A stretch of DNA of 64,000 bases from the human T2T-CHM13v2.0 reference genome, Homo sapiens. Location of the stretch: assembly GCF_009914755.1 (NCBI RefSeq), contig NC_060930.1; one strand, written 5' to 3'. The translations under genes were made by a program, and so were the position numbers. The first letter of the stretch is position 1. The number at the start of each line of letters is the position of its first letter. Below, one piece after another: positions 42,053 through 43,681 of the stretch. The notes under the pieces were generated by a model. It searched no databases and was not told the DNA's origin. It was given only the letters and a program-made list of their open reading frames with translations.

Positions 42053-42668
42053 TGCCATCTAGGACTTTCATAGCTAGAGGGGAGTAGTCAATGTCTGGCT
42101 TCAAAGGACAGGCTGACACTCTTGTTAGGGGCTAAGGCAGCTGGTGACTTTAAGTTGAAGCCCGTGCTCATTTACCATTCCAAAAACCCTAGGGACCTTA
42201 AGAATTATGCAAAATATACTTTGCCTGTGCTTTATAAGTGGAACAACAAAGCTTAGATGACAGCACATCTGTTTATGGCATGATTTATTGAATATTTTGA
42301 GGCCACTGTTGAGACCTCTTGCTCACAAAAAAAGATTTCTTTTAAAATATCACTGTCCATTGACAATGAACCTAGACACCTGAGAGCTCTGATGGAAATG
42401 TACAAGGAGATTAATGTTTTCATACCTGCCAACACAGCGTCTGTTCTGCAGCCTGTGGATCAAGAAGTCATTTCAACTTATGAGTCTTATTATTTAAGAA
42501 ATATATTTAGTTATTTAGTAAAGCTATAGCTGACATACTTTCTTGAGATGGAATCTACTCCTGGTGAAGATGCTGTGAACATTTGAAATGACAGGAAAAG
42601 ATTTAGAATATTACATAAACTCAATTAGTAAAGCAGTGGCAGGATTTGAGAAGGTTGACTCCAATTTT

Positions 42669-42982
42669 TAAAAAAATTTTATTTATTTATTTATTTGGAG
42701 ACAGGGTCCCACTCTGTTGCCCAGGCTGGAGTGCAGTGGTGTAATCATAGCTCAAACTGTAACCTCAAACTCCTGGGCTCAAGTGATCCTACTGCCTCAG
42801 CCTTCTGAGTAGGTGGGACTACAGGTGTGCGCCACCATACCCAGCCAATTTTTTTATTTTTTATAGAGATGGGGTTTTCATTGTGTTGCCCAGGCTGGTC
42901 TTCAATTCCTGGCCTCAAGCAGTCCTTTTGCCTTGGCCTCCCAAAGTCCTGAGAGTATAGGCGTGAGCTACCACACCTGGCC
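42669..42982 (-). mobile_element. Alu (J-like) in Tigger1, adjoining the retrocopy
   Basis: Reverse Alu between ttgactccaatttt and ttgacttcatttt. Confidence 0.88.
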
Positions 42983-42999
42983 AGATTGACTTCATTTTT

Positions 43000-43315
43000 T
43001 AATTTTTTATTTTTTTCAGATAAATAGAAAGTCTGGTTTTATTTTAAGCTTTACATTTTTGTCAAGTGCAAGGTCAGCCAGCTAAGATTTCCAATAATTA
43101 CTGAAGTAATAACTTCTGCTGGCATGTCTTCTGAGTCTCCATTTCCTCCACTGATATTCATCCAAATAATAAGAGAAACACAATTGCAGTTGAGTTTACT
43201 ATTATCAATGGCACTGTCATCAAGGTTCTTACAGATCAAATAAGGTTCATTAGCTGAGATTTAATTCCTGGCTCCTCTCCAAATCCATCGATTCCCTGGT
43301 CTCTTCCCCAGCCAA
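43000..43315 (-). pseudogene. IER3IP1: Processed pseudogene of IER3IP1 (codon 31 to the stop, short 3'UTR, poly(A))
   Basis: Minus strand reads GWGRDQGIDGFGEEPGIKSQLMNLI*SVRTLMTVPLIIVNSTAIVFLLLFG*, compared with recalled IER3IP1 GWGTDQGIGGFGEEPGIKSQLMNLIRSVRTVMRVPLIIVNSIAIVLLLLFG. No intron; premature TGA 43238-43236; native stop 43160-43158; AATAAA 43043-43038; A-tail from 43016. Confidence 0.92.
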
Positions 43316-43400
43316 AGTTCCACATGGCTGGGGAGGCCTCACAATCATAGCAGAAGACAAATGAGGAGCAGAGTCATGTCTTACATGGTGGCAGGCAAGA
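43316..43400 (-). mobile_element. THE1 (MaLR, THE1D-like) LTR fragment forming the 5' exon of the retrocopy
   Basis: TCTTGCCTGCCACCATGTAAGAC...GAGGCCTCCCCAGCCATGTGGAACT matches the recalled THE1 LTR and stops where the consensus continues GT(A/G)AGT. Confidence 0.85.
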
Positions 43401-43681
43401 GACTAACTTCAATTTTGGAAGAAGTTCTACCGTGGGTAAAATGCTATCAAACAGAGTCACATGCTACAGAGAAATCTTTTGTGAAAGGAAAAATCAATCA
43501 ATGTGGCCAACTTCATTACTGTCTTGTTTAAGAAATTGTCACAGCCAGCCCAGCCTTTAGCAACCATCACCCTGGTCAGTCAGCAGCCATCAACATTGAG
43601 GCAAGATCCTCCACTAGCAAAAAGATTATGACTTGCTGAAGGCTCAGATGATTGTTAGCACTTTTTAACAATAAAATATTA

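What the first reader, a model, noticed from the sequence alone, without database searches (positions are those of the whole stretch)
43000..43402. Retrocopy of a THE1-LTR-promoted, spliced IER3IP1 transcript
Seen: on the minus strand, ~85 nt of THE1 LTR ending ...CCCCAGCCATGTGGAACT (43316) is joined without extra bases to TTGGCTGGGG... (43315). That sequence is intronless IER3IP1 coding DNA from within codon 31 to the stop, followed by a 3'UTR, AATAAA, poly(A) and a TSD. Established/recalled: THE1/MaLR LTRs carry a splice donor at GGAACT|GT(A/G)AGT and act as alternative promoters in oocytes, testis, DUX4-expressing cells and Hodgkin lymphoma (THE1B-CSF1R); IER3IP1 exon 2 begins inside the Ile31 codon (A|TT); the fragment's 5' end lies roughly 25-30 nt after the THE1 TATA box, near the LTR start site. 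Inference: this is a near full-length cDNA of an LTR-initiated mRNA that replaced IER3IP1 exon 1 and was present in the primate germline or early embryo, where L1 retrotransposed it. The pseudogene may already be annotated; the chimeric LTR origin is the point of interest.
Basis: partly seen in the sequence, partly recalled or inferred. Interest (0 to 1): 0.92.

Follow-up and report, generated by a model that had tools for sequence, protein, structure and literature searches.

The report
Retrocopy of LTR-spliced IER3IP1 transcript
This is a dead, intronless copy of the IER3IP1 gene whose first exon is replaced by the start of a THE1-type retrotransposon LTR, so it records an ancient LTR-driven spliced transcript; it is one of several such copies, not a new kind of element.

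Summary
On the minus strand, an 84-87 nt THE1-type LTR piece (43402/43399-43316) abuts IER3IP1 exon 2 (43315-43214). Exon 3 with its 3'UTR (43213-43017), AATAAA and a poly(A) tail follow. A 17-nt target-site duplication encloses the whole unit inside an old DNA transposon.

Both sides of the junction are splice sites. The parent intron 1 ends in AG directly before the joined base. In 25 of 29 genomic LTR copies, GT follows the piece's last base. The piece starts 27-30 nt after the LTR's TATAAA.

However, the predicted same-strand THE1 was not found in intron 1 or within 150 kb upstream of IER3IP1 in this human assembly.

A limited genome-wide pattern screen found three sibling retrocopies with the same LTR donor joined to an exon start. 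For two of them, the source LTR still lies 8 kb and 63 kb upstream of the parent, on the same strand. The mechanism therefore holds.

The IER3IP1 source LTR may be lost, never fixed, farther away, or acting in trans. I rate this a new member of a known kind, of moderate interest.

The parts
43400..43416 (-). 5' copy (a) of the 17-nt target-site duplication, AAAATTGAAGTTAGTCT. Its last 3 nt (TCT, 43402-43400) could equally be the first bases of the LTR piece.
   Evidence: 4 of 4 paralogous copies of the flanking repeat run through this site uninterrupted.
43316..43402 (-). THE1-type MaLR LTR piece (84-87 nt), running from about the LTR's start site to the last base before its splice donor.
   Evidence: 92-95% identity to 39 other genomic copies; in 29 copies, GT follows the piece in 25 and GTGAGT in 24; 22 carry TATAAA, whose first T is 27 nt before the piece start in 16; the 32-mer spanning the piece end plus GTGAGTC occurs 1484 times.
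43214..43315 (-). Copy of IER3IP1 exon 2 (102 nt), with an in-frame TGA at 43238-43236 where the parent has CGA.
   Evidence: 93/102 identical to contig 18 positions 47347745-47347846. The parent has AG immediately upstream and GT immediately downstream.
43017..43213 (-). Copy of IER3IP1 exon 3: the coding end (stop 43160-43158) and the 3'UTR up to the poly(A) site, with AATAAA at 43043-43038.
   Evidence: 185 of 197 aligned bases identical (12 substitutions), plus gaps of 3 and 7 nt. Intron 2 is absent.
43000..43016 (-). Degraded poly(A) tail.
   Evidence: an A-rich run begins where the parent genomic sequence continues with a T-run.
42983..42999 (-). Middle copy (b) of the target site, AAAAATGAAGTCAATCT. 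It is the 3' duplication of the retrocopy and the 5' duplication of the adjacent Alu.
42669..42982 (-). Alu element with A-rich tail, in the same orientation and inserted at the same target site. It is not part of the retrocopy.
   Evidence: The Alu identity and its subfamily are recalled, not tested.
42652..42668 (-). Third copy (c) of the target site, AAAATTGGAGTCAACCT, after which the flanking repeat continues.
   Evidence: the downstream flank continues exactly as in 4 of 4 paralogs.
43417..43640 (-). Upstream flank: an old interspersed repeat (Tigger1-type DNA transposon by recall) that hosts both insertions.
   Evidence: 39 other genomic places at 83-87% (40 scored of 3437 candidates).

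Best explanation
An mRNA began in a THE1-type MaLR LTR, about 27-30 nt after its TATA box. It used the LTR's own splice donor (GGAACT followed by GTGAGT in genomic copies) and spliced to the normal acceptor of IER3IP1 exon 2, skipping exon 1. It then spliced exon 2 to exon 3 and was polyadenylated at the proximal AATAAA.

L1 machinery reverse-transcribed this mRNA at a TTTT/GG nick inside an old DNA transposon in what is now a TBC1D22B intron. This left a 17-nt target-site duplication. The copy then decayed, acquiring an in-frame TGA and two small deletions.

Shown here: the anatomy, both exact splice boundaries, the single enclosing duplication, and that the same route produced sibling retrocopies whose cis LTR still exists.

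Inferred: that transcription initiated in the LTR, that it happened in the germline or early embryo (the copy is heritable), and that the LTR lay in cis at IER3IP1. No such LTR is present in this assembly within 150 kb upstream. It was therefore lost, never fixed, or lies farther away.

The confidence given (0.85) is for 'L1 retrocopy of an LTR-donor-to-exon-2 spliced RNA made in cis'. For a spliced chimeric RNA of any origin, I put it at about 0.93.
For: Junction and parent splice sites:
- The join is GGAACT then TTGGC, with no filler.
- The parent acceptor AG lies directly before TTGGCTGGGG. Exon 1 ends in A, so the T at 43316 comes from the LTR and not from exon 1.

LTR features in genomic copies:
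- 25 of 29 copies have GT, and 24 of 29 GTGAGT, right after the piece's last base.
- The 32-mer spanning the piece end plus GTGAGTC occurs 1484 times.
- 22 of 29 copies carry TATAAA; its first T lies 27 nt before the piece start in 16 of them.

Single insertion event:
- 4 of 4 paralogs of the host repeat are uninterrupted across the site.
- The duplication encloses LTR piece, exons and tail.
- The tail starts at the parent's poly(A) site.
- The other two IER3IP1 retrocopies (contigs 12 and 2) carry exon 1 instead.

Sibling retrocopies:
- A pattern screen gave 36 hits, of which 3 have unrelated sequence after GGAACT.
- All 3 are multi-exon intronless copies that start at a parent exon's first base after an AG.
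- For 2 of the 3, the best non-self genome-wide match of the LTR piece (94%) lies on the same strand, 8.3 kb or 63 kb upstream of the parent exon. It is followed there by GTAAGT and shares private variants with the retrocopy.

Literature (passages read):
- A THE1B LTR initiates CSF1R transcripts and supplies the splice donor (PMC5134097).
- THE1B-HEY1 starts 40 kb upstream, splices to exon 2 and is found in testis (PMC3836709).
- THE1 LTRs start transcripts in human oocytes (PMC6102241).
Against: No source LTR was found near the parent:
- BLAST used five full LTR copies against the first 80 kb; over the full 180 kb (contig 18 positions 47337001-47517000: gene, intron 1, 150 kb upstream of exon 1) the rows of two of the five copies and of the piece itself were examined.
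- These found four or five MaLR LTR matches on the opposite strand and one on the gene's strand, about 19.5 kb upstream of exon 1.
- That one is only 68-72% identical to the five LTR copies used as queries and 64/91 to the piece, with a 9-nt insertion.
- None of the 39 best genome-wide matches of the piece lies on contig 18.
- A 42-nt pattern with up to 3 mismatches gave 54 hits; the only one on contig 18 is 17.6 Mb away.

Limits of those two genome-wide searches: the piece carries 3 private changes inside that 42-mer, and the DNA list stops at 92%. A source at about 90-92% could be missed beyond the scanned 180 kb.

Other weaknesses:
- The start-site claim rests on spacing from TATAAA and on sibling 5' ends. 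One sibling begins at the same CTTGCC and one about 8 nt upstream, but the third extends at least 50 nt further into the LTR.
- No measured THE1 start site was seen in a paper.
- The names THE1, Tigger1 and Alu are recalled; no repeat library was available.
Confidence: 0.85

Rival explanations
1. Trans-splicing. A THE1-initiated RNA from another locus was spliced in trans to IER3IP1 pre-mRNA at exon 2, and L1 then retrocopied the product.
For: It explains both exact splice boundaries and also the absence of a cis LTR. A preprint on exon-L1 chimeric insertions that end at splice donors raises trans-splicing as a possible route (bioRxiv 10.1101/2025.02.02.635956, passages read).
Against: No genomic copy stands out as a donor. 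The best matches (95%) share at most one of the piece's three private variants. In the two siblings where a source could be identified, it lies in cis. By recall, trans-splicing is rare in mammals.
Confidence: 0.08
2. Template switching. During target-primed reverse transcription of a normal IER3IP1 mRNA, the L1 reverse transcriptase jumped to a THE1 RNA, as proposed for U6/L1-type chimeric retrogenes.
For:
- Exon 1 ends ...GAACA and the LTR piece ends ...GGAACT, a 4-nt microhomology next to the junction.
- The contig 12 retrocopy aligns 4 nt further into the window sequence for that reason.
Against: - The break would have to fall exactly on the exon 1/2 boundary, one position in an mRNA of roughly 480 nt by my sum of the exon lengths.
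- It would also have to fall exactly on the LTR's donor, one position in an LTR of about 350-400 nt by the BLAST spans.
- A jump primed on the GAAC microhomology would leave exon 1's A at 43316, but the base is T, as in the LTR.
- The three siblings show the same donor joined to three different exon starts, which random jumps do not predict.
Confidence: 0.04
3. Two independent events. A THE1 fragment was already at the site, or arrived later, and a 5'-truncated IER3IP1 retrocopy landed beside it by chance.
For: None beyond the fact that both sequence types are common in the genome.
Against: - 4 of 4 paralogs of the host repeat have neither part, and one 17-nt duplication encloses both.
- The piece is an internal 84-87 nt of an LTR, with no LTR ends and no duplication of its own.
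- Both breakpoints are splice sites.
Confidence: 0.01

Closest known systems
L1-mediated processed pseudogenes (retrocopies) of spliced mRNAs
   Same: Intronless copy of a three-exon gene, poly(A) tail at the parent's poly(A) site, 17-nt target-site duplication, T-rich nick site, decayed reading frame.
   Different: Exon 1 is replaced by a retrotransposon LTR exon. The two other IER3IP1 retrocopies in the genome carry exon 1.
LTR-initiated chimeric gene transcripts (THE1B-CSF1R, THE1B-HEY1, oocyte LTR-initiated transcription units)
   Same: A MaLR LTR supplies the first exon and the splice donor and joins a canonical downstream exon. HEY1 likewise joins at exon 2 (PMC5134097, PMC3836709, PMC6102241; passages read).
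   Different: Here the transcript is known only from its DNA copy. No LTR is present at the parent locus within 150 kb in this assembly.
Chimeric L1 insertions whose 5' gene exons end at splice donors (bioRxiv 10.1101/2025.02.02.635956)
   Same: A spliced chimeric RNA is captured by target-primed reverse transcription, with the junction exactly at a splice donor, plus a target-site duplication and poly(A).
   Different: There, gene exons are spliced onto L1. Here an LTR exon is spliced onto a cellular gene, and L1 acts only in trans.
U6/L1-type chimeric retrogenes (template switching or RNA ligation; PMC4476161 and PMC6789731, search listing and abstract starts only)
   Same: A two-part retrocopy in one orientation inside one target-site duplication.
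   Different: By recall, those junctions do not coincide with splice sites and the 5' partner is a complete small RNA. Here both breakpoints are splice sites.
Sibling retrocopies found here (contig 3 at 47488801, contig 3 at 72926020, contig 21 at 29996636)
   Same: The same LTR donor (…GGAACT) is joined to the first base of a parent exon. The copies are multi-exon and intronless.
   Different: Two of the three still have their source LTR in cis, 8.3 kb and 63 kb upstream. The IER3IP1 copy does not.

Membership tests
L1-mediated processed pseudogene | Intronless copy of a parent gene that has introns | tested here: met
   exons 2 and 3 are contiguous in the window, but about 1.2 kb apart in the parent and flanked there by AG/GT.
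L1-mediated processed pseudogene | Poly(A) tail at the mRNA's polyadenylation site | tested here: met
   AATAAA at 43043-43038. The A-run starts at 43016, where the parent has a T-run.
L1-mediated processed pseudogene | Target-site duplication of about 7-20 nt and a T-rich endonuclease site | tested here: met
   17 nt with 14/17 identical, and an empty-site proxy in 4 of 4 paralogs. The nick site reads TTTT/GG on the opposite strand. The consensus TTTT/AA is recalled.
IER3IP1 / Yos1 family | Yos1-like domain, and a three-exon parent on 18q21.1 encoding 82 residues | tested here: met
   PF08571, E 2.3e-14; the parent on contig 18 has coding parts of 91+102+56 nt, giving 82 codons plus stop. PMC12588062 and PMC11335259 (passages read) give the gene's location, exon number, length and its Yos1p orthology.
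THE1-type MaLR LTR | High identity to a multi-copy LTR family with TATA box and splice donor | tested here: met
   92-95% to 39 copies; TATAAA in 22/29; GT donor in 25/29; 1484 exact copies of the donor 32-mer.
THE1-type MaLR LTR | Assignment to THE1 and to a subfamily against a curated repeat library (Dfam/Repbase) | not testable with these tools
No repeat library is available here.
LTR-initiated chimeric transcript | LTR splice donor joined to a canonical acceptor of the gene | tested here: met
LTR-initiated chimeric transcript | 5' end at the LTR's transcription start site | tested here: inconclusive
   the piece starts 27-30 nt after the first T of TATAAA; one sibling starts at the same CTTGCC, one about 8 nt upstream, and one extends at least 50 nt further. 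No mapped THE1 start site was seen in the papers read.
LTR-initiated chimeric transcript | Same-strand LTR in cis, upstream of the acceptor exon | tested here: not met
   none in intron 1 or within 150 kb upstream of exon 1 in this human assembly, apart from one LTR that is 70% identical to the piece. Other primates and greater distances were not tested.
Template-switch chimeric retrogene | Junction unrelated to splice sites; 5' partner a complete small RNA | tested here: not met
   both breakpoints are splice sites, and the 5' partner is an internal LTR segment.

The most novel reading that the evidence does not exclude
The retrocopy may be the only surviving trace of a THE1 insertion at IER3IP1 that was transcriptionally active in the germline but was never fixed or was later deleted: a 'ghost' LTR promoter.

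Two observations fit this. The LTR piece differs from the majority state of its 29 nearest relatives at only 3 of 87 positions. That is about what the IER3IP1 part accumulated after insertion (11 changes in 258 compared columns). So the source LTR would have been young when it was copied. The 29 relatives were chosen for similarity to the piece, so the figure of 3 is a lower bound.

Together with the siblings, such retrocopies would form a nucleotide-resolution fossil record of ancient germline LTR promoter and donor use, including promoters that no longer exist.
Probability: 0.4. Interest if true: 0.55.

Novelty: new member of a known kind. Interest (0 to 1): 0.42.

Why it matters
The copy gives DNA-level evidence that a THE1-type LTR acted as an alternative promoter and first exon for an essential ER-Golgi gene in heritable cells tens of millions of years ago.

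LTR-exon retrocopies (at least four in a limited screen) can be used in two ways. They map ancient LTR start sites and donor use, and they can reveal LTR insertions no longer in the genome.

It changes nothing about IER3IP1 function. The copy is a pseudogene lying antisense in a TBC1D22B intron.

Tried and rejected
Searches that did not find the source LTR:
- BLAST of the piece and of five full LTR copies (in one search only the rows of two of the five were kept) against up to 180 kb around the parent gave no credible source.
- The genome-wide DNA search with the piece put no contig 18 hit in the 40 scored of 793 candidates.
- The 42-nt pattern with up to 3 mismatches gave 54 hits, none near the parent. 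It is weak as an exclusion, because the piece's 3 private changes all fall inside that pattern.
- An exact 32-mer search, meant to list contig 18 LTRs, listed only the first 100 of 1484 places, all on contig 1. It served only as a copy count.

Other dead ends:
- PDB sequence search with the translated copy: 0 hits.
- Paper searches: IER3IP1 with THE1, 0 papers. IER3IP1P / 'IER3IP1 pseudogene' / 'IER3IP1 retrocopy', 0 papers. A donor motif as text, 2 unrelated papers. None of the 15 listed of 71 papers in the search for retrocopies of LTR-driven transcripts contained the term 'LTR-driven'. These searches cover only the held open-access library.

Considered and rejected:
- LTR-retrotransposon-mediated retrocopying, which would leave LTR sequence on both sides (described in PMC5470649, passages read). 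Here there is LTR on one side only, plus poly(A) and an L1-type duplication.
- The same-strand LTR 19.5 kb upstream of exon 1 as the source. It is only 64/91 identical, with a 9-nt insertion.

Full report
**What is in the sequence**

Read on the minus strand, the region has the following order:
- host repeat;
- target-site copy a (43416-43400);
- LTR piece (43402/43399-43316; three bases, TCT, can be assigned to either);
- IER3IP1 exon 2 copy (43315-43214);
- exon 3 and 3'UTR copy (43213-43017), with the stop at 43160-43158 and AATAAA at 43043-43038;
- A-rich tail (43016-43000);
- target-site copy b (42999-42983);
- an Alu with its own tail (42982-42669);
- target-site copy c (42668-42652);
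- host repeat again.

Coordinates come and, for copy c, from my count on the output.

**Gene identity**

The translated stretch 43316-43158 hits Pfam Yos1-like (E 2.3e-14). A search of the window's own genome with 43315-43017 found five places. These are the window itself, two exon-wise matches on contig 18, and intronless copies on contigs 12 and 2.

The contig 18 locus has three coding parts of 91, 102 and 56 nt, which is 82 codons plus stop, with canonical splice sites. This fits published descriptions of IER3IP1: 18q21.1, three exons, 82 residues (PMC12588062, passages), and a yeast orthologue Yos1p (PMC11335259, passages).

Identity to the parent is 93/102 in exon 2. In exon 3 with the UTR there are 12 substitutions over 197 aligned bases, plus gaps of 3 and 7 nt. 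An in-frame TGA at 43238-43236 replaces the parent's CGA, so the copy is a pseudogene.

**The junction**

Parent intron 1 ends ...attatacag immediately before TTGGCTGGGG. Exon 1 ends ...AAGAACA followed by GTGAGT. The window reads ...GGAACT then TTGGCTGGGG. The IER3IP1 part therefore starts at the first base of exon 2, and the preceding T is not exon 1's A.

The 87-nt piece matches 39 other genomic places at 92-95% (40 scored of 793 candidates). I examined 29 of these copies with their flanks:
- the base after the piece's end is G-T in 25 of 29, and GTGAGT in 24 of 29;
- an exact TATAAA lies upstream in 22 of 29;
- its first T is 27 nt before the piece's first possible base in 16 of those 22.

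The 32-mer made of the piece's last 25 nt plus GTGAGTC occurs 1484 times in the genome. Both breakpoints are thus splice sites, and the 5' end sits where a TATA-directed start would be expected.

**One insertion event**

The flanks belong to one old interspersed repeat (39 other places at 83-87%). In 4 of 4 paralogs fetched, the sequence runs straight from the left flank into the right flank, with a single copy of the 17-nt target.

In the window that target is present three times, so two L1-type insertions used the same site. Copies a and b enclose the LTR piece, exons and tail together. Copies a and b also share an A where copy c and two paralogs have G and the other two paralogs have C. This suggests the retrocopy arrived after the Alu, but it rests on one site only.

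The nick site reads TTTT/GG on the opposite strand.

**Searching for the source LTR**

I BLASTed the piece and five full LTR copies against contig 18; only the rows of two of the five copies were kept. The final subject was positions 47337001-47517000, which covers the gene, its 18.6-kb intron 1 and 150 kb upstream of exon 1.

There are four or five MaLR LTR matches on the opposite strand and one on the gene's strand, about 19.5 kb upstream of exon 1. That one is 68-72% identical to the five LTR copies used as queries and 64/91 to the piece, with a 9-nt insertion. It is not a credible source.

Genome-wide, no match near the parent appears among the 40 scored places, nor among the 54 places that match a 42-nt pattern with up to 3 mismatches. 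These two searches would miss a source at about 90-92% identity. The piece carries three private changes inside that pattern, and the DNA list ends at 92%.

**Positive controls: sibling retrocopies**

A pattern requiring the piece's last 22 nt followed by non-G, non-T gave 36 hits. By my reading of the matched strings, 33 are LTRs with a mutated or shifted donor and 3 continue with unrelated sequence.

All three are intronless copies of multi-exon genes. The exon pieces matched were:
- two on contig 1;
- five on contig 8;
- three on contig 5.

In each case the first base after GGAACT is the first base of a parent exon that is preceded by AG.

For two of the three, the best non-self genome-wide match of the LTR piece (94%) lies on the parent's strand upstream of that exon, 8.3 kb away on contig 8 and 63 kb away on contig 5. 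It shares private variants with the retrocopy and continues there with GTAAGT. For the third, no match near the parent was in the 40 scored places.

The 5' ends differ: one sibling starts at the same CTTGCC as the window's piece, one about 8 nt upstream, and one extends at least 50 nt further into the LTR before an Alu interrupts it.

These controls show that LTR-donor-to-exon transcripts were retrocopied, and that the search can find an extant cis LTR. They also show that the window's copy is not unique.

**Age**

Using the contig 12 retrocopy to polarise differences gave these counts over 258 compared columns:
- 11 changes on the window copy's lineage;
- 6 on the parent's lineage;
- 2 ambiguous.

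The last part of the contig 12 row is misaligned past an Alu, so the counts are approximate. With recalled neutral rates of 1.5-2.2e-9 per site per year, this gives about 30 My, with a wide range.

The LTR piece differs from the majority state of the 29 copies at 3 of 87 positions. Those copies were chosen for similarity to the piece, so this is a lower bound.

**Mechanism and rivals**

Cis-splicing of an LTR-started transcript, followed by L1 retrocopying, is the best reading. The three rivals fare as follows:
- Template switching would need two independent exact coincidences. If primed on the GAAC microhomology, it would also leave A rather than T at 43316.
- Trans-splicing explains the anatomy and the missing LTR, but no donor copy stands out, and the resolvable siblings are in cis.
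- Chance adjacency is contradicted by the single enclosing duplication.

**Literature**

I read passages showing the following:
- THE1 LTRs act as promoters and donors: CSF1R (PMC5134097) and HEY1 exon 2 and testis (PMC3836709).
- THE1 LTRs start transcripts in human oocytes (PMC6102241).
- Spliced exon-L1 chimeras end at donors (bioRxiv 10.1101/2025.02.02.635956).
- PMC5470649 describes the mechanisms of retrocopy formation.

No paper in the held library pairs IER3IP1 with THE1 or names an IER3IP1 pseudogene. RefSeq lists no pseudogene here, according to the hub's table.

**Verdict**

It is a new member of a known kind, of moderate interest.

Noticed in passing
window 42652-43416: The same 17-nt target in the host repeat was used by two L1-type insertions, an Alu and the retrocopy. 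This left three copies of the target site in tandem order.
   Followed up: partly
window 43325-43323: An ATG inside the LTR piece is in frame with the IER3IP1 reading frame (…M-W-N-F-G-W-G…). The chimeric mRNA could therefore have encoded a protein lacking the first 30 residues. Other ATGs lie upstream of it in the piece.
   Followed up: no
G000 contig 3 at 47488801-47489350 (L058); contig 3 at 72926020-72926570 (L059); contig 21 at 29996131-29996765 (L060): Three further retrocopies in which the same LTR donor is joined to the first base of a parent exon. The parents are on contig 1 at 243.79 Mb, contig 8 at 98.94 Mb and contig 5 at 172.45 Mb. Their 3' ends and target-site duplications were not examined.
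   Followed up: partly
L058, just before the LTR piece: The contig 3 sibling has AGG directly before CTTGCC, where LTR copies have other bases. The G's might be untemplated cap-derived bases of a full-length cDNA.
   Followed up: no
G000 contig 18 at 47386216-47386607: An older same-strand MaLR LTR lies about 19.5 kb upstream of IER3IP1 exon 1 and still carries ...TGTGGAACT. It is not the source of the piece, but it might act as a promoter or donor today.
   Followed up: partly
parent 3'UTR on contig 18 compared with window 43131 and the contig 12 copy: Both retrocopies lack 3 nt (GAG) that the present parent has, and they share several states against it. Those changes therefore arose in the parent lineage after both copies were made.
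   Followed up: partly
L002 (contig 12 retrocopy): The contig 12 IER3IP1 retrocopy carries exon 1. Its 3'UTR is interrupted by Alu-like sequence about 130 nt into exon 3.
   Followed up: no
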